From Alphaproteobacteria bacterium (GTDB lineage Bacteria > Pseudomonadota > Alphaproteobacteria > JAAXGF01), in the NCBI GenBank assembly GCA_963555825.3, contig CAUVXB020000001.1:1984001-2048000 (forward strand): 64,000 nt of DNA, given 5' to 3'. Below the pieces are notes generated by a model that ran no database searches, had not been told where the DNA came from, and was given only the letters and a program-made list of their open reading frames with translations. Shown in pieces: positions 22,437-61,390 of this stretch (positions are counted from its first letter, which is position 1; every line of letters starts with the position of its first letter). The position numbers were made by a program, and so were the translations under genes.

Positions 22437-24020
22437 ATGCGACTCGGTGAAATTCGCGTAGCGCGCGGCGTCGTCACCGTCGAAGGCATCGAACAGGCGG
22501 CCGAACATCAACGCACCAACGGCGGTCGGCTGGGCGACAATCTCGTCGCGCTCGGTCTGCTCACGCAAGAGCAAATCGACGAAGTCATGCACGAAACGCC
22601 GCGGTCGCCCAAGACCATCATGGGCACCGGCCTGAGCCAAGCCAACATCACCTCGTTGGTTCTGAAGTTCTTGTACATCGAGCAGCTCGACACAATCTCG
22701 AAGCTGATCGATAATACCAAGCTGCCGTACAACATCGTCAAGATCATCATCGACGATTTGGTCAGCAAGAAATACATCGAGGTGCTCGGCTCGTCCGGCG
22801 CCGACGGCGCGCAGTCCGAGACACGATATGCGCTGTCCACAGCGGGCCGCGAGATGGGCAGCGAGGCAGCCGAGCAGAACATCTACATGGGTCCCTGCCC
22901 GGTCTCGCTCGAACAATATCAGGATCAGGTGCTCAAGCAGCGCATCACCAATGAGGTGACCGACGAGAAGGCGATCAGAGAGTGCTTCGAAGGCCTGATC
23001 ATTCCCGACCATTTCCTGGCCCAGATTGGCCCGGCGGTCAACTCGGGCCGCACGCTGCTGATGTACGGCCCGCCGGGCAACGGCAAGACGTCGATCGCGA
23101 CCCGCATTGCCGAAATCTTCACGCATATCGTCTATGTACCCTACGCGGTCGACATCGACGGCCAGATCATGCAGATCTACGATTCGAGCATTCACATCGA
23201 GGCCGTCGACGACAAGTCGAGGGAACTGCTCGCCGCCCAGCAGCCCCGGGGCCTACGTAAGGAGGACTTCGACCAGCGCTGGATCGCCTGCCGGCGGCCG
23301 GTCGTCGTGGTCGGCGGCGAGCTCACACTCGAAATGCTCGACCTCAGCTACAACGAGGACGCCAAGTTCTACGAGGCGCCGATGCATGTGAAGGCGCTCA
23401 ACGGCACCTTCATCATCGACGATTTCGGCCGCCAGCTGGTGACGCCGGAGAGCCTCCTTAACCGTTGGATCGTGCCGATGGAAAGCCGGGTCGATTACTT
23501 CAAGTTGACGACCGGCAAGAGCTTCCAGCTGCCTTTCGACGAGTTCCTGATCTTCTCGACCAACCTCGAGCCTAACGACCTCATGGACCCGGCGTTCCTC
23601 AGGCGTATTCCGTACAAAATCGAGCTGTTCGAGCCGACAGTGGAGGATTTCCACCGCATCTTCACGATCATCGCCAAACATTCGGGTCTGGAACTGCCCG
23701 ACGATGTCTTCGAATACGTGGTGCACCAGCTGAGCGTGAAGAACAGCTTCCATCTCGCCTATTATCAGCCGAAGTTCATCATCGATCAGGTGTTGGCGGA
23801 GTGTAAGTACCAGAACATTCCGCCGAAGTTCACCAAGAAACGGATCAACTCCGCACTGCAAAACCTCTACGTCCACATCGAGATGGACGATCCCGGCCCC
23901 TGCGAGCCCGCGCAGCCGGCGGCCCCCGAGGCCGAGGCACAGCCCGCGCCACCGCCGGCCGCGGCCGCGGCGCCCGAACCCGCGCCGGCCCAGCACGCCG
24001 CCCCCGAGGGCCACGATTGA
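22437..24020 (+). CDS. AAA+ ATPase with N-terminal MshEN-like domain and Pro/Ala-rich tail
   Basis: RLGE...G...Q and RLGD.L..LG tandem motifs; Walker A GPPGNGKT, FIIDDFGRQ, FSTNL, AFLRRI. Confidence 0.85.
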   Translation: MRLGEIRVARGVVTVEGIEQAAEHQRTNGGRLGDNLVALGLLTQEQIDEVMHETPRSPKTIMGTGLSQANITSLVLKFLYIEQLDTISKLIDNTKLPYNIVKIIIDDLVSKKYIEVLGSSGADGAQSETRYALSTAGREMGSEAAEQNIYMGPCPVSLEQYQDQVLKQRITNEVTDEKAIRECFEGLIIPDHFLAQIGPAVNSGRTLLMYGPPGNGKTSIATRIAEIFTHIVYVPYAVDIDGQIMQIYDSSIHIEAVDDKSRELLAAQQPRGLRKEDFDQRWIACRRPVVVVGGELTLEMLDLSYNEDAKFYEAPMHVKALNGTFIIDDFGRQLVTPESLLNRWIVPMESRVDYFKLTTGKSFQLPFDEFLIFSTNLEPNDLMDPAFLRRIPYKIELFEPTVEDFHRIFTIIAKHSGLELPDDVFEYVVHQLSVKNSFHLAYYQPKFIIDQVLAECKYQNIPPKFTKKRINSALQNLYVHIEMDDPGPCEPAQPAAPEAEAQPAPPPAAAAAPEPAPAQHAAPEGHD

Positions 24021-24437: not shown

Positions 24438-24473
24438 GCCCGACCTCTTCGTGATTGATGTAGACCCGGCGAC

Positions 24474-24757
24474 AATACCAAGGATCAGTGATAAAGACCC
24501 ATAGAGACGGCTTGCCGTGGTTCTCGGCTAGGCGCGCCCGTCGCGGCGATGCCCATGTATGGCAATAGGAGGGGCATCGCAAGATGGGTGGAACGACGTC
24601 CGGGAGCCTCGGCAAGCCGCCCTTCGGGTCGCGTCCGCTTATCGCCGGAGGGCGCCAGGTTGCCTAGCCGATGCGCTGCATCGCCCGCGGCTCCCTTGCC
24701 TCACCGCCGAAAAGCGGACGCGATCTCTAGGGGCCTTTATCACTGATCCTTGGTATT
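24474..24757 (+). mobile_element. MITE-like structured element A (~284 bp) with ~34-bp terminal inverted repeats
   Basis: aataccaaggatcagtgataaagacccatagaga ... tctctaggggcctttatcactgatccttggtatt (2 mismatches); ATACCA/TGGTAT ends resemble the adjacent IS630; two long internal hairpins. Confidence 0.8.
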
Positions 24758-24855
24758 ATACCAGTGAGCGCCTGAATTGACTCTCGGGATATTCATTGAT
24801 GGCGGATGATGGCGGATTGTGATTCTATGGTCTCCCACCAGATGTGGGGGATGTC

Positions 24856-25368
24856 ATGGGATCAGCACTCAAGATACGGGATGATTTGACGCCTTTGGAG
24901 CTTCGGCGCTGGGCTCGCGTGGAATCGTACGGTCGAGCGGCGGCGCGGGCCTATGGGATCGCGAATGCTTTGGAGGAGATGCCCCGGGCTGATGCCGCGC
25001 GGCTTGCGGGGATGGATCGCCAAACGCTTCGCGACGCGGTTGTTCGTTACAATGCAAAGGGATTGGAGGGGCTTCACGACCGTCCAAAGGGCTACTCGCC
25101 GCGGCGGCTGACGGCAGACGAGGAAGCGGCGCTGGCGGCGGTCATCATCGCCGGGCCGGAGCCTGAGCGCGACGGGGTTTGCGCCTGGACCCGGGCCGAT
25201 CTGTGCCGCTGGCTGGAGGAGCGCTTCGCCAAGACCTACCACCCCTCGAGCATGACCCGGGTTCTACGGCGGATGGGATTTTCCCGCCAGAAGGCGCGCC
25301 CGAGCCACCCGCGAAGGGACGCCGAAGCGCAGGAGCGCTTCAAAAAAGGGGGCTTCGCGACATCCTGA
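24856..25368 (+). CDS. IS630 transposase ORF A (HTH)
   Basis: GMDRQTLRDAV.RYN..G..GL.D, W.R.DL, MGFSRQKARP.HP; ends just after the aaaaaaggggg slippery run (25342-25352). Confidence 0.9.
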   Translation: MGSALKIRDDLTPLELRRWARVESYGRAAARAYGIANALEEMPRADAARLAGMDRQTLRDAVVRYNAKGLEGLHDRPKGYSPRRLTADEEAALAAVIIAGPEPERDGVCAWTRADLCRWLEERFAKTYHPSSMTRVLRRMGFSRQKARPSHPRRDAEAQERFKKGGFATS

Positions 25369-25922
25369 AGGCGACCGCCGCGGCGCATCCCGACAAGCGC
25401 CTACAGCTGTGGTTTCAGGATGAAGCGCGCGTCGGCAACAAGGGCCGGGTGTGTCACCGGTGGTGGCGCAGGGGCGAGCGTGCCCCCGGGACGCGTCAAA
25501 TCGGCTACCAGTGGGCCTACATCTTCTCCGCCGTGCGCCCGGACACCGGCGACGACGTCACCCTGGTGATGCCGAGCGTCAACGCCAAGGTCATGGACCT
25601 GTTTCTCGCACACTTCGCCGATACCCTGGACCAGGATGCGCACGCCGTCATGATGTGCGACGGCGCCGGTTGGCACGACGAGCGCGCCCTCACCGTCCCC
25701 GACAACGTCACCTTGGCGCTGTTGCCGCCTTACAGTCCCGAACTCAACCCCGTCGAGCGGGTTTGGCTCTACCTACGCGAACGCTTCCTATCGCTCCGCG
25801 TCCTCGACGACACCGAGGCCATCATCGACGCCTGTTGCCAAGCATGGATCGACCTCATCGCAGAACCGGATCGTATGCGAACCCTCTGCGCCTATCCATG
25901 GATCATGAAGGTGATTTCATAG
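25341..25922 (+). CDS. IS630 transposase ORF B (DDE), -1 frame
   Basis: WFQDEARVG, CDGAGWH, LPPYSPELNPVERVW. Confidence 0.9.
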   Translation, partial: QKRGLRDILKATAAAHPDKRLQLWFQDEARVGNKGRVCHRWWRRGERAPGTRQIGYQWAYIFSAVRPDTGDDVTLVMPSVNAKVMDLFLAHFADTLDQDAHAVMMCDGAGWHDERALTVPDNVTLALLPPYSPELNPVERVWLYLRERFLSLRVLDDTEAIIDACCQAWIDLIAEPDRMRTLCAYPWIMKVIS

Positions 25923-26080
25923 GCTCACTGGTATTAGGCTAGCACGCAGCGCCGGTAACCACGAAACGCGGGGTGATCGGCGTTGCTTTTGCCAATGCGC
26001 GGAAGTATGACACTCCTCGATCCGTGTGGGCCGCCGACCGGCGCCTTCCGCAACCGAAACTAATTCGACGAGGCAAGCCA

Positions 26081-27472
26081 ATGAGCACGCTGGCGAACTC
26101 TCCCAGTGCCAAGGATATCGCCTATCACCTGCACCCCTACACCAACTTCGTGGCGCACGAGGCGCAGGGTCCGCACATCATGACCGAGGGCGACGGCATC
26201 TATGTCATCGACGACACCGGCAAGCGCTACATCGAGGGATTGGCCGGGCTGTGGTGCGCCTCGCTCGGCTTCAGCAACGAGCGGCTCGCGGCGGCGGGCG
26301 CGGCGCAGTTGCGCCAGTTGCCCTACTATCACAACTTCGCCCACAAGACGACGCCAGCCGTCGTCGAACTCGCCGAGCGACTCATCGAGATGGCGCCGGG
26401 ACCGATGTCGAAGGTGTTCTTCACCAACTCCGGCTCCGAGGCGAACGACAGCCAAGTCAAGATGGTCTGGTATTACCACAACGCCATCGGCAAGCCCGAG
26501 AAGAAGAAGATCATCTCGCGCATCGGCGGCTACCACGGTGTCACCGTCGCAGCAGCGAGCCTGACCGGCCTGCCCTACGTGCAGGACGCCTTCGACCTGC
26601 CGATCGCCAACATCATCCAGACCGAGAACCCGCACTACTGGCGCTTCGGCGAGGCAGGCGAGTCGGAAGAGGACTTCGCGACGCGCATGGCGGCGAGCCT
26701 CGAACAACTGATCATTGACGAGGGCCCCGAGACGGTCGCCGCCTTCATCGCGGAACCGGTGCAGGGCGCCGGCGGCGTCATCGTGCCGCCCAAGACTTAT
26801 TTCGCCAAGGTTCAGGAGGTGCTTCGCCGCCACGACGTGTTGTTCATCGCCGACGAGGTGATCTGTGGCTTCGGCCGTACCGGCAACATGTTCGGCTCCG
26901 AGACCTACGACCTCAAGCCCGACATGGTGACGGTGGCGAAGGCGTTGTCGTCGTCGTACCTGCCGATCGCGGGCGCCATGATCTCGGAGAAAATCTACCA
27001 GGCGATCCGCGACGAGAGCGGGCGGCGCGGCGTGTTCGGCACCGGTTATACGTACAGCGGCCACCCGGTTTGCGCCGCGGTCGCGCTCGAGACGCTCAAG
27101 ATCTACGAGGAGACCGACATCGTCGGTCACGTCCGCAGCATTTCGCCACACTTCCTAAGCCGGCTGCACGCGCTTGGCGATCACCCGTTGGTCGGCGAGA
27201 CCCGAGGCGTCGGCCTGATCGGCGGCGTCCAGCTGGTCAAGAACAAGGCGACCAAAGAGATGTACGATCCGTCGCTGAAAGTCGCGCCGACGGTCATGAA
27301 CCTCGCGGTCGAGCATGGTCTCTTGATCCGCGCGCTGCCCAACGATTCGATCGCGGCGTGCCCGCCACTGATCATTACCATCCCACAAATCGATGACCTG
27401 TTCGACAGCATGGGCCGGGCGCTCGACGACATGCTCGACGCATTGACCAAACAAGGCGAAGCGGCCGAATAA
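26081..27472 (+). CDS. class III (omega) aminotransferase
   Basis: AGLWC, NSGSEAND, YHG, AEPVQGAGG, DEVICGFGRTG, AKALSS, YTYSGHP. Confidence 0.93.
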   Translation: MSTLANSPSAKDIAYHLHPYTNFVAHEAQGPHIMTEGDGIYVIDDTGKRYIEGLAGLWCASLGFSNERLAAAGAAQLRQLPYYHNFAHKTTPAVVELAERLIEMAPGPMSKVFFTNSGSEANDSQVKMVWYYHNAIGKPEKKKIISRIGGYHGVTVAAASLTGLPYVQDAFDLPIANIIQTENPHYWRFGEAGESEEDFATRMAASLEQLIIDEGPETVAAFIAEPVQGAGGVIVPPKTYFAKVQEVLRRHDVLFIADEVICGFGRTGNMFGSETYDLKPDMVTVAKALSSSYLPIAGAMISEKIYQAIRDESGRRGVFGTGYTYSGHPVCAAVALETLKIYEETDIVGHVRSISPHFLSRLHALGDHPLVGETRGVGLIGGVQLVKNKATKEMYDPSLKVAPTVMNLAVEHGLLIRALPNDSIAACPPLIITIPQIDDLFDSMGRALDDMLDALTKQGEAAE

Positions 27473-35041: not shown

Positions 35042-35175
35042 GTTCTTCCCACCTTTCTTGGACACCTGGGCGGCGCCCGCGCATGGCAGCCGCGTGGATT
35101 AAGAATTTGCAGCCTTGGCGATTTGACGTCAACATGATGCGAACAGCGACGCAAAATCGATTTGGAGAGGACGCC

Positions 35176-36582
35176 ATGGTTGAGACGAACTTCGCCGCCT
35201 ACGACACCGAGGACATCCGGCGGAAGGATCGCGACCACGTCATCCACCCGTGGACCGACTTTTCGACCTTCAAGGAGGAAGGCTCGGAAATCTTCGCCGA
35301 ATCCGAGGGCATCTACGTCTACAACTCCGACGGCGACCGGTTCATCGACGGCATCGGCGGGCTGTGGTGCGTCAACGTCGGCTACGGCCGCGACGAGATC
35401 GCCCAGGCGATGGCCGATCAGGCGCGCCGCATCTGCTACTACTCGACCTTCACACACATCACCACGCCGCCCGCCGCCGAGCTCGCCCACCGACTGTGCG
35501 GCCACGCGCCGGACAACATCAACCACCTGTTCTACGGCACCGGCGGGTCGATGTCGAACGACACCGCGATCCGGATTATTCACTTCTATTTCAACCGCTT
35601 GGGCAAACCGAAGAAGAAACACATCATCTCGCGCGTCGACGGCTATCACGGCTCGACCTACATGGCCATGTCGCTCACCGGCGTCGCGTTCGACCACGTC
35701 GGCTTCGACATCGTCACCGACATCGTGCACCACATCCCGGCGCCCAACCCGTACCGTCGGCCCGAAGGCATGACGGTCGAGGAATTCTGCGACGAGAAGG
35801 TCAAGGACCTCGAAGACAAGATCCTCGAGCTCGGGCCCGAGAACGTCGCCGCCTTCATCGCCGAGCCGATCATGGGCGCCGGCGGGGTGATCGTGCCGCC
35901 GCATGGCTATCACGCGCGCACGCGCGAGGTATGCCGCGAATACGAGGTGCTCTACATTTCCGATGAAGTCGTTACCGGTTTCGGCCGCGTCGGCCATATA
36001 TTCGCCTCCGAGCCGGTCTTCGATCTCAGGCCCGACTTCATAATTTCGGCCAAGGGCATCACATCGGGTTACGTACCGCTCTCGGCGACGATGATCGCCG
36101 ACGAGGTCTACGACGTGATCAGCGAGCCGCAGGCCGAGGGCGCGCTGTTCACCCACGGTTTTACCTATTCGGGACATCCGGTGTCCTGCGCCGCGGGGCT
36201 CGCCAACCTGGACATCATGGAGCGCGAAGACATCTGCGGTCACGTCCGCGAGGTCGGACCCTATTTCGAGGAGTGCCTGACTGACCTGCTCGAGCTGCCG
36301 GTCGTCGGCGACGTGCGCGGCAAATGCTTCATGATGTGTGTCGAGAACGTCGCCGACCGCGAGACCAAGGAACTGTTCGCCCCGGAGGTCAAGATCGGCG
36401 AGCGCATTTCGAAGCATTGCCAGCAGCGCGGGCTGATCGTGCGGCCGCTCGGACATCTCAACGTCATGTCGCCGCCGCTCATCCTGACCCGCGAGCAGAT
36501 CGACACCTTCGTCGACATTCTGCGCGAGAGCATCGTAACGACCCAGGACGACTTGGTCCGCGAGGGTCTCTGGAAGGGCTGA
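35176..36582 (+). CDS. class III aminotransferase, tandem copy 1
   Basis: DGIGGLWC, YHGST, AEPIMGAGG, DEVVTGFGR, AKGITSGY, HGFTYSGHP. Confidence 0.93.
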   Translation: MVETNFAAYDTEDIRRKDRDHVIHPWTDFSTFKEEGSEIFAESEGIYVYNSDGDRFIDGIGGLWCVNVGYGRDEIAQAMADQARRICYYSTFTHITTPPAAELAHRLCGHAPDNINHLFYGTGGSMSNDTAIRIIHFYFNRLGKPKKKHIISRVDGYHGSTYMAMSLTGVAFDHVGFDIVTDIVHHIPAPNPYRRPEGMTVEEFCDEKVKDLEDKILELGPENVAAFIAEPIMGAGGVIVPPHGYHARTREVCREYEVLYISDEVVTGFGRVGHIFASEPVFDLRPDFIISAKGITSGYVPLSATMIADEVYDVISEPQAEGALFTHGFTYSGHPVSCAAGLANLDIMEREDICGHVREVGPYFEECLTDLLELPVVGDVRGKCFMMCVENVADRETKELFAPEVKIGERISKHCQQRGLIVRPLGHLNVMSPPLILTREQIDTFVDILRESIVTTQDDLVREGLWKG

Positions 36583-36687
36583 TCTGCGCCGACCATCGGA
36601 CCGCGTAACCGCTTTTCGGCCGCCCGCGCCTCGCTTGCGCGGCGTTACTGCGACGTCTTGAAACGGAATTTCATGGAGGGAGGCACC

Positions 36688-38076
36688 ATGCCGTCGAATT
36701 TCGAATACCCGACCAAGGAACTGTGGGCCAAGGACCGCGACCATGTGATTCACCCGTTCAGTGACCTCGCGTCGCTCAAGGAGGACGGCTGCATGATCAT
36801 GGCCGAGGGTGAAGGCGTCCATGTCTTCGATTCCGACGGCAACCGCTACATCGACGGCATCGGCGGCCTGTGGTGCGTCAACATCGGCTATGGCCGCGAG
36901 GAGATGATCCAGGCGATCGCCGACCAGATCCGCCGCATCCCCTTCTTCTCGGCCTTCGTCAACCTGACCAACCCGCCGGCCGCCGAGTTCGCCTATGAAC
37001 TCGCCCAGCGCACGCCGGGCGACCTCAACCACATATTCTTCGGCACCGGCGGCTCGATGGCCAACGACACCGCGGTGCGCATCATTCACCACTACTTCAA
37101 CCGCCTCGGCAAACCGAAGAAGAAGCACGTTATTTCGCGCGAACAGGCCTATCACGGCTCGACCTATCTCGCGATTTCGATGACCGGACCGACCTACCAT
37201 CAGGGCTGGGACGTGATCTCGGAGTTCGTCCATCACATCCCGGCGCCCAACCCGTACCGGCGCCCCGACGACATGAGCGTCGAACAGTTCTGCGACGCCA
37301 AGGTCAAGGACCTCGAGGACAAGATCCTCGAGCTCGGCCCCGAGAACGTCGCCTGCTTCATCGCCGAGCCGATCATGGGCGCGGGCGGCAACATCGTGCC
37401 GCCGCCGGGCTATCACAAAGGTACCCGCGACGTCTGCACGAAATACGACGTGCTCTACATCTCGGACGAGGTGGTGACCGGCTTCGGCCGCCTCGGCCAT
37501 CTTTTCGCGTCGGAGGCCGTGTTCGACATCGTCCCCGACGTGCTGATCTTGGCAAAGGGTATCTCGTCGGGCTACCAGCCGCTGTCGGCGACGATCATCT
37601 CCGAGGGGATCTACGATGTCATCAGCCAGCCGGGTGAGCACTTCTTCCACGGCTTCACCTACTCGGCGCATCCGGTGGCCTGTGCCGCCGGCCTCAAGAA
37701 CCTCGAGATCATGGAGCGCGAGGATATCCCGGGCCACGTGCGCGAGGTCGGACCTTATTTCGAGAAAACTATCCATTCGCTGACCGATCTTGAACTGATC
37801 GGCAACGTGCGCGGCATGTGCTTCATGATGTGCATCGAGAGCGTCGCCAACCGCGACACCAAGGAGCTGCTGCCCGCAGAGGTCGACGTCGGCCGCCGGA
37901 TCTCCGACGCCTGCCAGCGCCGCGGCCTGATCGTCCGGCCGCTGGGGCACCTCAATATCCTGTCGCCACCGTTGATCCTGACCACCGATCAGATCGATCA
38001 GATCGGCGACATCCTGCGCCAGAGCATCAAGGAGGTCATGGACGACCTCGTGCGCGAGGGCGTCTGGAAGGGCTAG
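36688..38076 (+). CDS. class III aminotransferase, tandem copy 2
   Basis: Same motifs, long identical stretches with copy 1. Confidence 0.93.
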   Translation: MPSNFEYPTKELWAKDRDHVIHPFSDLASLKEDGCMIMAEGEGVHVFDSDGNRYIDGIGGLWCVNIGYGREEMIQAIADQIRRIPFFSAFVNLTNPPAAEFAYELAQRTPGDLNHIFFGTGGSMANDTAVRIIHHYFNRLGKPKKKHVISREQAYHGSTYLAISMTGPTYHQGWDVISEFVHHIPAPNPYRRPDDMSVEQFCDAKVKDLEDKILELGPENVACFIAEPIMGAGGNIVPPPGYHKGTRDVCTKYDVLYISDEVVTGFGRLGHLFASEAVFDIVPDVLILAKGISSGYQPLSATIISEGIYDVISQPGEHFFHGFTYSAHPVACAAGLKNLEIMEREDIPGHVREVGPYFEKTIHSLTDLELIGNVRGMCFMMCIESVANRDTKELLPAEVDVGRRISDACQRRGLIVRPLGHLNILSPPLILTTDQIDQIGDILRQSIKEVMDDLVREGVWKG

Positions 38077-59445: not shown

Positions 59446-61110
59446 TCACGCGCCGTAGCGGAACCGGTTGGTGATCGGGTAGCGGCGGTCGCGGCCGAAG
59501 GATCGGCTGGTGATCTTTACGCCGGGCGGCGCCTGGCGGCGCTTGTATTCGGCGAGGTCGAGCATGCGCGAGACACGGCGCACGACATCGGCGTCGTGGC
59601 CGCGCGCGGCGATCTCGTCGATGCCCTGCTCGCCCTCGACCAGGCATTCGAGAATGTCGTCGAGCACCGCGTAGGGCGGCAGGCTGTCCTGATCGGTCTG
59701 ATCGGGCCTGAGCTCGGCCGACGGCGGCTTGGTGATGATGGCGTCGGGTATGACCTCGCCGGTCGGACCCTTGGTGCCGCCCGGCAGGGTTTCGTTGCGC
59801 CAGCGCGCCAGCGCGAAGGCCGTCGTCTTGTAGACGTCCTTGAGCACCGAATAGCCGCCGCACATGTCGCCATAGAGCGTCGCGTAGCCGACCGACATCT
59901 CGGATTTGTTGCCCGTGGTCAGCACCATGTGGCCGAGCTTGTTGCTGATCGCCATCAGGATCATGCCGCGGATGCGCGCCTGCAGGTTCTCCTCGGTGAC
60001 GTCCGGCTCGCGGCCGGCGAACAACTCGCCGAGCATGCCGCCGTACGCCTCGACCGCGCTCTCGATCGGCACCGTATCGAGGCGCACGCCGAGCCGCTCG
60101 GCGCAGGTCCGGGCATCGTCGAGCGAGCCTTGCGAGGTATAGCGCGACGGCATCATCACGCAATGCACCGCGTCCGGCCCCAGCGCGTCGACCGCGATCG
60201 CCGCGCTGAGCGCCGAATCGATGCCGCCCGAGAGCCCGATTACGACGCCCGGAAAGCGGTTCTTGCCGACGTAGTCGCGCAGCCCCGTCATGGTCGCCTG
60301 ATAGATCGCCGCCTCGCCCTCCTCGGCCTTGGCGATGTCGGCGGCGGCGCAACGCCAGCGGCCGTCATCGCCGACCGACCAATGGGTCATCAGCACGGTC
60401 TCGCGCCACGACGGCGCCTGGGCGCGCAGGTTCCGATCGGCGTCGAGCACGAACGAGGCGCCATCGAACACCAGCTCGTCCTGGCCGCCGACCTGGTTGA
60501 CGTAGATCAGCGGCAGGCCCGATTCGGTGACCCGCGCGACCGCCAGGCTCAGCCGGTCGTCGGGCTTGTCGAGCTCGAAGGGCGAGCCGTTCGGCACGAC
60601 GAGGATCTCGGCGCCCGACTCCTCGAGGCATTCGGTGACGTCGGCGGTCCACATGTCCTCGCAGACCATGACGCCGAGGCGCACGCCCTTGAACGGCACC
60701 GGCCCGTTCAAGGGGCCGGCGGTGAACAAGCGCTGCTCGTCGAAGACGCCATAGTTGGGCAGATCGTGCTTGGGGCGCACCGCGGCGACGCCGCCGTCGG
60801 CCAACAGATAGGCGGCGTTATAGAGCTTGCCGTCATCGCGCCACGGCGCGCCGACCAGCATCGCCGGGCCACCGTCGCCGGTCGACTGGGCGAGGCGCTC
60901 GATGGCGCGCTCGACGCGCTCGACGAGCGCCGGCTTGAGCACCAGGTCCTCGGGCGGATAGCCAATCAGCACGAGCTCGGTATAGACGACCAGGTCGGCG
61001 CCCCCGGCGGCCGCTTCGTCGCGCGCCGCGAGCAGGCGGTCGGCGTTGCCGTCGACATCGCCGACGGTCGGGTTGAGCTGCGCCAGCGCGATGGTGAGCG
61101 ATTCGGTCAT
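59446..61110 (-). CDS. nadE: glutamine-dependent NAD+ synthetase
   Basis: Nitrilase domain (EL...GYPPEDL, K.DLPNYGVFDE, CEDMW) and GLSGGIDS, ENLQAR, TGNKSE, PPSAEL, EYKRRQ. Confidence 0.97.
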   Translation of the reverse strand: MTESLTIALAQLNPTVGDVDGNADRLLAARDEAAAGGADLVVYTELVLIGYPPEDLVLKPALVERVERAIERLAQSTGDGGPAMLVGAPWRDDGKLYNAAYLLADGGVAAVRPKHDLPNYGVFDEQRLFTAGPLNGPVPFKGVRLGVMVCEDMWTADVTECLEESGAEILVVPNGSPFELDKPDDRLSLAVARVTESGLPLIYVNQVGGQDELVFDGASFVLDADRNLRAQAPSWRETVLMTHWSVGDDGRWRCAAADIAKAEEGEAAIYQATMTGLRDYVGKNRFPGVVIGLSGGIDSALSAAIAVDALGPDAVHCVMMPSRYTSQGSLDDARTCAERLGVRLDTVPIESAVEAYGGMLGELFAGREPDVTEENLQARIRGMILMAISNKLGHMVLTTGNKSEMSVGYATLYGDMCGGYSVLKDVYKTTAFALARWRNETLPGGTKGPTGEVIPDAIITKPPSAELRPDQTDQDSLPPYAVLDDILECLVEGEQGIDEIAARGHDADVVRRVSRMLDLAEYKRRQAPPGVKITSRSFGRDRRYPITNRFRYGA

Positions 61111-61117
61111 AGACGCC

Positions 61118-61390
61118 AGCCCGAAGTTCTCACCATGGACAGGCGCGTCATCGCGTCGGGCGGCCGCCGAGCCGCCAGAAAAAGGCCGCGGAGCGTAGCC
61201 TGGGCCACGGTCAAGGCCTTCGACGCCGCGGGCGGGCCGCCCGGCGCGACCCTTAAGGGCGGCGGATCTCGGACGACAGGCCGCGTCAAAGCGCTTGCCC
61301 GATGCGCAAGCATCGTGGCCCGCGCGCTTTTCCTAGCCTGTCGTCCGATATACGCCGTGCCGCACCTGTCCATGGTGAGAATTCCGGGCT
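61118..61390 (-). mobile_element. MITE-like structured element B (~273 bp) with 30-bp terminal inverted repeats
   Basis: agcccgaagttctcaccatggacaggcgcg (61118-61147) vs cgcacctgtccatggtgagaattccgggct (61361-61390), 27/30 complementary; two long internal hairpins; fills the pncB-nadE spacer. Confidence 0.75.

What the first reader, a model, noticed from the sequence alone, without database searches (positions are those of the whole stretch)
24474..24757. Structured element A: one multi-arm fold shared with element B (61118-61390) inside unrelated terminal repeats
Seen: A has a ~34-bp closing stem; arm 1 (cggcttgccgtggttctcgg 24508-24527 / ccgggagcctcggcaagccg 24600-24619, inner gcgatgccc/gggcatcgc); a linker hairpin ccc-ttcg-ggg with a cUUCGg tetraloop; and arm 2 (ggtcgcgtccgcttatcg / cgaaaagcggacgcgatc, inner cgatgc-gct-gcatcg). 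B, read on the minus strand, has the same order and near-identical length, and the same landmarks: acggc at the arm-1 start, ggctagg after the stem, a cgatgc...gcatcg tip, the linker gccgccctt(c/aa)gggtcgcg, and gacgcgat closing arm 2. The stems differ in sequence yet still pair, and the terminal repeats are unrelated. Most of A's mismatches are G-U wobbles on the plus strand. Inference: a conserved structured RNA or ssDNA module carried by different TA-targeting MITE shells. I cannot match it to a named family.
Basis: partly seen in the sequence, partly recalled or inferred. Interest (0 to 1): 0.82.

Follow-up and report, generated by a model that had tools for sequence, protein, structure and literature searches.

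The report
Mini-transposons with conserved two-strand folded core
The two elements are real relatives: small gene-less jumping DNA elements whose ends vary, while the interior keeps a folded module once on each DNA strand, which points to a function inside such elements that is not yet known.

Summary
Observation confirmed. A (window 24476-24755) and B (61389-61119) belong to two of five ~265-bp MITE families in this genome (102 copies). A covariance model built without A- or B-type rows ranks their arms first in the window (E 8e-11, 3e-7). Both are insertions. An empty A site holds one TAA, so A duplicates 3 bp (TNA), not TA. A's ends match a resident IS630 at 21/32 and 20/32.

Arm 2 is a reverse-strand copy of arm 1. 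Arm 1 keeps G-T pairs and its loop motif on the top strand, arm 2 on the bottom. The linker is a triloop, not cUUCGg. The module recurs in 8 of 150 other class genomes and in single-arm MITEs; its loop appears in 3-4 of 13 E. coli ERIC copies (model score not significant). No orientation bias to neighbouring genes was found.

Best reading: IS630-mobilised MITEs with a selected single-strand module serving the element itself; RNA versus ssDNA is unresolved. The scan noted this family earlier on other DNA; my searches found no description in print.

The parts
24473..24475 (+). left copy of the 3-bp target duplication of A (CAA, worn from TAA)
   Evidence: empty allele with a single TAA in run X2; TNA flanks family-wide
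24476..24506 (+). A left terminal inverted repeat (31 bp, TACC-type IS630 end)
   Evidence: 29/31 identical to the right repeat; family consensus matches both ends of a 7-8-copy IS630 at 21/32 and 20/32
24507..24619 (+). A junction base and arm 1: module copy folded on the top strand (proximal loop AGG near 24530 with AACG near 24592; tip helix GATGC 24548-52 / GCATC 24574-78; 18-nt tip insertion)
   Evidence: held-out model R1 66 bits, E 8e-11; G-T bias
24620..24628 (.). A central mini-hairpin, 3-bp stem with 3-nt loop (GNA on the minus strand)
   Evidence: loop census
24629..24724 (-). A arm 2: inverted copy of the module, folded on the bottom strand
   Evidence: R1 29.3 bits on minus versus 16.6 on plus; family-wide asymmetry
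24725..24755 (-). A right terminal inverted repeat
24756..24758 (+). right target copy TTA, re-used as target by the neighbouring IS630
24759..25933 (+). neighbouring IS630 (about 70 near-identical copies, two ORFs); not the best-matching helper of A
   Evidence: NF033545 hits; ends and copies
61359..61389 (-). B left terminal inverted repeat (31 bp); its first G completes the TAG stop (61391-61389) of the nicotinate phosphoribosyltransferase-like gene
61260..61358 (-). B junction base and arm 1 (module copy on B's own top strand)
   Evidence: R1 48.1 bits, E 2.8e-7
61250..61259 (.). B central mini-hairpin (4-nt-loop variant)
61150..61249 (+). B arm 2: inverted module copy on the opposite strand
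   Evidence: R1 23.2 bits, E 0.025; R2 30.2 bits, E 2e-4 (R2 holds B-type rows, so not held out)
61119..61149 (+). B right terminal inverted repeat; worn TA copy (TG) at 61118-61117; nadE starts at 61110
   Evidence: element absent at the same junction in G005

Best explanation
A and B are copies of non-autonomous, IS630-mobilised MITEs of one superfamily. Shown: insertion, target duplication, 31-32-bp terminal repeats, no coding capacity needed. Inferred: movement by cut-and-paste with a transposase encoded elsewhere; for A the best candidate is a resident 7-8-copy IS630 whose ends match in register. The ends change quickly, both together, to fit whichever IS630 subgroup is available (shown as a pattern; hairpin-templated correction or end replacement is inferred). 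Inside the ends sits a ~95-nt rod-shaped module with two conserved internal loops and a GATGC/GCATC tip helix, at a nearly fixed distance (about 57-60 nt) from the element end. It is selected as a single strand (shown). The 265-bp form carries it twice, head to head, so each strand has one working copy (shown). Most likely function (inferred, not shown): the module is a binding site for a host or helper protein when a strand of the element folds back (ssDNA at the fork, cruciform or excision intermediate), and it raises the element's own chance of transposing or surviving, whatever the orientation to neighbouring genes. Odds: MITE superfamily with selected single-strand module 0.9; element-level DNA-side function given that, about 0.5.
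For: Mobility: empty site for A, B absent at the pncB-nadE junction of G005, 102 dispersed copies at 92-97% mean identity within families. Helper: 21/32 and 20/32 match, top among 719 distinct ATACCA-starting 32-mers apart from A copies and stubs. Selected fold: 81 of 101 pairs with two-sided changes; arm covariation 0.41 versus 0.155 shuffled and 0.07-0.09 slid; unpaired loop bases invariant across single-arm, arm-1 and reversed arm-2 rows; coupled non-canonical swap A.G / C.A in the loop (31 of 37 parsed arm-1 rows, 32 of 33 arm-2 rows). One copy per strand: G-T versus A-C is 19/6 in arm 1, 16/34 in arm 2, 23/25 in the terminal stem; 100/14, 16/31, 30/38 within genome families; loop descriptor hits arm 1 plus 18/49, arm 2 minus 29/49, other orientations 0/49. 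Element-level and DNA-side: no orientation bias to the abutting gene in two-arm (25 versus 19; 12 versus 9) or single-arm elements (8 versus 8); central loop is GNA on one strand in 25 of 37 triloops and six cases break cUNCGg while keeping the triloop; GNA triloops are a stable DNA motif (PMC13037366, passages); tip loops are not conserved RNA tetraloops.
Against: No protein partner is identified and no transposition was observed. No IS630 with matching ends was found in this genome for families B, C, D, E (best in-register match 13-14 of 32), and no autonomous element carrying the module was found. G-U-rich helices, tandem purine pairs and the isosteric-looking swap are at least as typical of RNA (own knowledge); arms are more strand-biased under RNA than DNA energies (36/37 versus 32/37). 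19 of the 25 GNA/TNC loops are also compatible with cUNCGg on one strand. The single-arm orientation test has only 15 elements and crude gene calls. Only 18 of 41 A copies have identical TNA on both sides. Hairpin-templated correction can create stem covariation without selection (PMC5941160, abstract).
Confidence: 0.45

Rival explanations
1. The module acts as RNA in host transcripts (processing, stability or protein-binding signal at gene ends), as proposed for ERIC and Correia elements; the two-arm form guarantees a sense copy in either orientation, so insertions at stop codons are tolerated or useful.
For: 37 element ends of 84 A/B/C/E copies lie on a called stop codon; B sits inside the pncB-nadE junction; G-U bias and purine-rich loops suit RNA; ERIC and Correia affect mRNA through RNase E and RNase III (PMC2229807, parts 1-2 of 3 read; PMC10969869, passages).
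Against: Single-arm relatives show no orientation preference (8 versus 8), which this reading predicts; landing on stop codons follows from TA/CTAG/TNA targets alone (inference); A lies between divergent genes; cUUCGg is not what is conserved.
Confidence: 0.3
2. The fold is a by-product: the element arose by inverted duplication of one end plus hairpin, and template switching keeps stems paired without selection; the core is shared only by descent.
For: Arm 2 is an inverted copy of arm 1; left and right repeats share the same non-consensus base more often than independence predicts (A 39 versus 17.5, B 29 versus 10.7; not in C or D); correction of imperfect inverted repeats is a published model (PMC5941160, abstract).
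Against: Correction would erase the loops, yet the unpaired bases are the most conserved positions while stems and ends turn over (end identity about 0.46 when cores are 70-80% alike); it does not explain opposite G-T bias in the two arms or the fixed spacing.
Confidence: 0.08
3. The element makes its own small RNA (or RNA intermediate) that takes part in its spread or in control of the helper transposase.
For: Whole-element fold with closed ends; ERIC-like sequence is in Rfam as an antisense RNA, V_AS5 (E. coli ERIC hit 44.9 bits, below gathering 96).
Against: No sigma-70-like promoter in or beside A; summed RNA depth on A in run X1 is 36-51 against about 3 on the flank, less than the copy number and less than the DNA ratio (contigs cannot measure expression); IS-type ends and target duplications point to DNA transposition.
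Confidence: 0.1
4. The module is a REP-like hairpin processed on ssDNA by a HUH (Y1/RAYT) enzyme, and the terminal stem is only a closing helix.
For: The loop strands resemble the core of the REP hairpin shown in the Rfam naRNA4 alignment; three Y1-domain genes exist in the genome.
Against: No module near those three genes; the pairing register that REP uses is not conserved in the module; ends and TA/TNA duplications match IS630.
Confidence: 0.04

Closest known systems
ERIC / IRU (ISfinder MITEEc1; MITEPlu5 of Photorhabdus), attributed to IS630-type transposases (PMC6267812, passages)
   Same: TA-flanked, gene-less, strongly folding on one strand (13 of 13 E. coli K-12 copies); the same proximal loop geometry in 2 of 13 copies (strict) or 3-4 of 13 (relaxed), never antisense, none in 72 kb of flank.
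   Different: 127 bp, one arm, different tip, loop 27 nt from the end instead of 57-60; covariance models R1 and R2 do not score ERIC significantly (E 1.1 and 2.1); A and B do not hit V_AS5.
RUP of Streptococcus pneumoniae and other IS630-type bacterial MITEs (PMC2229807)
   Same: Ends resemble a resident IS630; TA (here also TNA) target; intergenic; non-coding.
   Different: In RUP the ends are the conserved, informative part; here ends are exchanged or rewritten while the interior fold is conserved across families of bacteria.
CIR elements of Caulobacter and Brucella (PMC2229807, describing Chen and Shapiro 2003)
   Same: Alphaproteobacterial, intergenic, two hairpin arms joined by a linker, TA termini.
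   Different: CIR is about 110 bp, has no closing terminal stem and carries GANTC; here 265 bp, a 31-32-bp closing stem, and GANTC in only 4 of 49 cores. No CIR sequence was compared directly.
mPing of rice (PMC9921582, abstract)
   Same: Precedent that internal sequences of a MITE raise or lower transposition.
   Different: Eukaryotic, other transposase family, no conserved single-strand structure shared between unrelated shells is claimed in the abstract.
Single-strand initiation signals such as ssiA/ssiB (PMC13037366, section 4.2)
   Same: Hairpins read on ssDNA, with GNA mini-hairpins.
   Different: They belong to replication origins; no sequence likeness was tested and no primase link was found. 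A works-like comparison only.

Membership tests
MITE (bacterial, IS630-type) | Short element with terminal inverted repeats and no transposase gene | tested here: met
   262-271 bp consensus lengths, 31-32-bp repeats, left/right identity 94.5%
MITE (bacterial, IS630-type) | Multiple dispersed copies | tested here: met
   41, 30, 18, 11 and 2 copies
MITE (bacterial, IS630-type) | Target-site duplication and empty sites | tested here: met
   One empty-site contig for A with a single TAA; TNA flanks 18/41 exact, 30/41 same middle base; TA within CTAG for B and C; B absent in G005
MITE (bacterial, IS630-type) | Ends match an autonomous IS in the genome | tested here: inconclusive
   Met for A (21/32, 20/32); not found for B-E among six multi-copy IS630 families
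MITE (bacterial, IS630-type) | Mobilisation in trans by that transposase | not testable with these tools
   needs an assay
ERIC/IRU | Sequence similarity to the 127-bp ERIC over its length | tested here: not met
   R1 E 1.1, R2 best E 2.1; no V_AS5 hit for A/B
ERIC/IRU | Shared proximal internal loop (works-like test) | tested here: inconclusive
   2-4 of 13 copies fit the descriptor, shuffles 0.03-0.3%, none antisense; copies are related and the interior-length window was set after seeing the data
CIR / RIME-type alphaproteobacterial repeats | About 110 bp, two arms without closing terminal stem | tested here: not met
   265 bp with 31-32-bp closing stem
CIR / RIME-type alphaproteobacterial repeats | Conserved GANTC site | tested here: not met
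   4 of 49 cores
REP/REPIN with RAYT | Linkage to a Y1/RAYT gene | tested here: not met
   no R1 match of note in the three Y1 loci
REP/REPIN with RAYT | Short palindrome with a 5' tetranucleotide tag, no long terminal repeats | tested here: not met
   no such tag in the consensus; long terminal repeats present
Rfam RNA family | Match at gathering score | tested here: not met
   none in the window; only chance-level hits for seven member loci

The most novel reading that the evidence does not exclude
Many bacterial MITEs, ERIC included, carry one portable single-strand structural module that a host or helper protein recognises and that is needed for efficient non-autonomous transposition. The module is passed between IS630 end types, and the 265-bp form is its dyad version with one copy per strand around a four-way junction. 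IS630-family mobilisation of MITEs would then involve a folded single-strand step that is not part of the current cut-and-paste picture.
Probability: 0.25. Interest if true: 0.85.

Novelty: new variant of a known kind. Interest (0 to 1): 0.58.

Why it matters
MITEs are usually described as conserved ends around a free interior (PMC11602168 and PMC3184786, passages). Here the ends turn over and the interior fold is held, with strand-specific selection, across bacterial families and into Betaproteobacteria. That implies a function inside such elements that has not been identified. The invariant loop bases give a precise target for mutation, and A comes with a candidate helper transposase, so how bacterial MITEs move and why they fold so well becomes directly testable. 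If the ERIC link holds, the same test can be run in laboratory E. coli.

Tried and rejected
Direct A-core and B-core profile searches did not cross-detect full-length copies; bridging families C and D did. Search for autonomous carriers: no larger element with the same full ends; the 5.6-kb stretch between two A-type stubs holds what look like ordinary host ORFs (judged from the translations, not searched); of 89 module-bearing loci of at least 1.2 kb only the window's own had an IS630 hit. A is not enriched near IS630 (5 of 41 within 1.5 kb versus 8.3% random). Five viral pattern hits looked like chance matches and none scored with R1. No match in phages for A or plasmids for a two-arm member. 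A 36-copy descriptor hit in the genome lies inside a repeated open-frame sequence without the fold and was set aside as chance. Shell swapping on the core tree is suggestive only: TNA-type shells need 4 changes, AU p=0.012 with 13 rows, p=0.19 after removing three long-branch rows (two labels wrong were corrected). Replichore bias could not be tested because GC skew is too weak. BRE of Bordetella (PMC3110155, passages) is a tandem 90-bp repeat; not compared by sequence. RNA run evidence is contig-only and cannot show ends or level; runs with small word shares were not used. One search gave an empty result through a script fault and was redone.

Full report
Observation. The features are present as described. 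A and B fold with z-scores of -12.2 and -10.9 and no shuffle of 200 folds as well. Each gives a terminal stem, a long arm, a short hairpin and a second long arm. Rfam has no match in the window and only chance-level hits for seven member loci. The terminal repeats of A and B share 5-7 of 31-32 positions.

Copy families. In the window's genome, BLAST finds 65 A-like loci (42 aligned over 200 bp or more) and 87 B-like loci (35). A search that used only the linker motif and a long flanking inverted repeat kept 103 of 2358 linker matches. They fall into five families of 41, 30, 18, 11 and 2 copies, plus one probable false hit. Consensus lengths are 264-271 bp and mean identity within families is 92-97%. 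Sixteen of the 18 D copies share the same flanks and sit in the arm-1 tip of a B element.

A and B are homologous. A profile of the A core did not find full-length B copies directly, but both cores hit family C. I built covariance model R1 from arm 1 of 29 elements, leaving out all A-type and B-type rows. In the 64-kb window its best hits are A arm 1 (66 bits, E 8e-11) and B arm 1 (48 bits, E 2.8e-7). Next come arm 2 of A and arm 2 of B on the opposite strands (29 and 23 bits); unrelated sequence starts at 18 bits.

They are insertions with IS630-type ends. One contig of run X2 joins 24472 to 25936 with two letters between, giving a single TAA where the window has A and the adjacent IS. This fits a 3-bp TNA duplication. 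Family A has identical TNA on both sides in 18 of 41 copies and the same middle base in 30 of 41; B and C have TA within CTAG-like sites. The neighbouring element is an IS630 with about 70 copies and the same TNA habit. The best match to A's end is another IS630 family of 7-8 copies, at 21/32 and 20/32 for its two ends, the top scores among 719 distinct ATACCA-starting 32-mers apart from A copies and stubs. No such partner was found for B-E. B completes the TAG stop of a nicotinate phosphoribosyltransferase-like gene just before nadE. Of four relatives with the gene, G005 has stop and nadE start 16 nt apart with no element; two carry other sequence at the junction and one showed no nadE hit in the locus.

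Spread. A matches 6 of 12 and B 4 of 12 other genomes of the family by BLAST, and A none of 28 genomes of other families. Seventy-six had a closing inverted repeat; of the 14 without, 9 were cut by contig ends. R1 hits 8 of 150 other class genomes, one per family, and 2 of 150 phylum genomes. In 41 non-redundant elements arm 1 is 94-96 nt in 35, and the target site lies 30-32 nt outside the junction. Model R2, which includes such rows, finds a held-out copy on a Mitsuaria plasmid (E 9e-6).

Fold held, ends free. In 39 diverse elements 81 of 101 predicted pairs show two-sided changes. For arm 1 the covariation score is 0.41 against 0.155 in shuffles and 0.07-0.09 with slid partners; relatedness can inflate the shuffle test. 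End identity falls to about 0.46 when cores are still 70-80% alike, while left and right ends of one element stay 94.5% identical. In A and B the two ends share the same non-consensus base about twice as often as independence predicts or more (39 versus 17.5; 29 versus 10.7), but not in C or D. On a core tree the TNA-type shells need four changes; monophyly is rejected with all rows (p 0.012) but not after three long branches are removed (p 0.19). End replacement is therefore suggested, not shown.

One module per strand. Arm 2 scores far better against the arm-1 model on the reverse strand (for example 65.6 versus 30.7, 61.2 versus 37.3 bits). Single-arm, arm-1 and reversed arm-2 rows align almost without gaps, and the invariant columns are unpaired loop bases. 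At pairs common to both strand folds, G-T versus A-C counts are 19/6 in arm 1, 16/34 in arm 2 and 23/25 in the terminal stem (37 rows, two misaligned B-type rows dropped; Fisher p 5e-4, rows not independent). Within the genome's families A-D the counts are 100/14, 16/31 and 30/38. Arm 1 folds better on the top strand in 36 of 37 and arm 2 on the bottom in 36 of 37 with RNA energies, 32 and 32 with DNA energies. A loop descriptor hits arm 1 top 18/49 and arm 2 bottom 29/49, and neither in the other orientation. Inside the loop two positions change together, A with G or C with A (31 of 37 and 32 of 33 parsed rows); I read this as a non-canonical pair (own knowledge). The loop lies about 57 nt from the end in most two-arm and 57-60 nt in most single-arm elements (some shorter values there probably come from internal look-alike sites).

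The linker. In 44 elements found without using the linker, 37 automated calls are triloops: 17 TNC, 8 GNA, 12 other; roughly eight of the 44 calls are mis-centred. Six have a compensated stem that breaks cUNCGg but keeps the triloop. GNA on one strand or the other is the stable DNA mini-hairpin loop (PMC13037366, passages and section 4.2). The other 19 GNA/TNC loops fit cUNCGg too, so this leans to DNA without proving it.

Relation to host genes. With crude gene calls, 37 ends of 84 A/B/C/E copies lie on a stop codon. Abutting genes read the element in sense 25 times and antisense 19 times. Among 15 single-arm elements the split is 8 and 8. RNA run X1 holds A at summed depth 36-51 against about 3 on the flank, below the copy number; contigs cannot show level or ends. 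No sigma-70-like promoter was found around A.

ERIC. I recalled that ERIC has a similar loop and tested it on 13 E. coli K-12 copies. All 13 fold better on one strand. The descriptor, derived from the alphaproteobacterial set, fits 2 of 13 strictly and 3-4 of 13 when relaxed, never antisense, with none in 72 kb of flank and shuffle rates of 0.03-0.3%. R1 and R2 do not score ERIC significantly. So A and B are not ERICs, and a shared loop is a moderately supported lead.

How it most likely works. Shown: insertion, duplication, IS630-like ends for A, a conserved single-strand module, one copy per strand, fixed geometry, no detectable orientation bias. Inferred: trans-mobilisation by IS630 transposases, and a role of the module for the element itself, most simply as a protein-binding structure on a folded DNA strand (0.45 overall). 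Rivals are an mRNA-level role (0.30), an element-made RNA (0.10), a neutral by-product of hairpin correction (0.08) and a HUH/REP mechanism (0.04).

What is known. Reviews and surveys describe bacterial MITEs as terminal repeats around a core, with RNase effects for ERIC and Correia, two-arm CIR elements, and IS630 links for RUP and MITEPlu5 (PMC2229807, parts 1-2 of 3 read; PMC3184786, PMC10969869, PMC11602168, PMC6267812, passages). Internal sequences affect mPing mobility (PMC9921582, abstract). Searches found no description of this family or of a loop shared between MITEs with unrelated ends. The library lacks most subscription papers, ISfinder could not be searched, and I opened no supplements; the cMITE files of PMC11602168 may contain these sequences unnamed. 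Earlier notes of this scan describe the same family in this and another genome, and the ERIC-like core in others; they are unchecked notes, not independent support. I did not see the one-copy-per-strand arrangement, the candidate helper or the empty site in the short entries shown.

Verdict. Real, non-random, and a new variant of a known kind: an IS630-type MITE superfamily with an unexplained, strongly selected interior module. Interest 0.58.

Noticed in passing
G000 long B elements, e.g. L111 (G000:C2:335411-335949): Family D sits in the arm-1 tip loop of family B in 16 of 18 copies with the same flanks, so the nested composite spreads as one ~540-bp unit; two D copies stand alone.
   Followed up: partly
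window 24759-25933 and G000 genome-wide: A subgroup of IS630 elements (families of about 70, 16, 14 and 7 copies) has ends starting TACC and duplicates 3 bp (TNA) instead of TA; paper search listed nothing on this.
   Followed up: partly
L333 (G011), pncB-nadE junction: A different repeat with a TAGAGC-type end occupies the junction where B sits in the window: independent insertion at the same spot.
   Followed up: no
L131, L140, L155 (G122): Near-identical cores carry three different terminal repeats in one genome, the clearest sign of fast end turnover.
   Followed up: partly
L200, L201, L252: Single-arm derivatives of two-arm families (terminal repeat, arm 1, terminal repeat) exist, so arm 2 can be lost.
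   Followed up: no
L183, L181, L221, L242: A ~250-bp element with one module plus a different second domain and a fourth kind of end.
   Followed up: no
G000:C2:2210974-2211000, C2:1995324, C1:1413205-1413255: Collapsed stubs made only of the two terminal repeats or parts of them; many single orphan ends of A and B.
   Followed up: no
window 22437-24020: 527-aa ORF with an MshE-related cyclic di-GMP-binding motif at its start and a weak ATPase hit.
   Followed up: no
window 35083-38076: Two adjacent ~1.5-kb paralogous ORFs (73-81% alike in DNA), with a third related gene near 26000-27400.
   Followed up: no
L301:107-151 (E. coli REP, Rfam naRNA4 alignment): The REP hairpin core resembles the two loop strands of the module, but in a pairing register that the module does not conserve.
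   Followed up: partly
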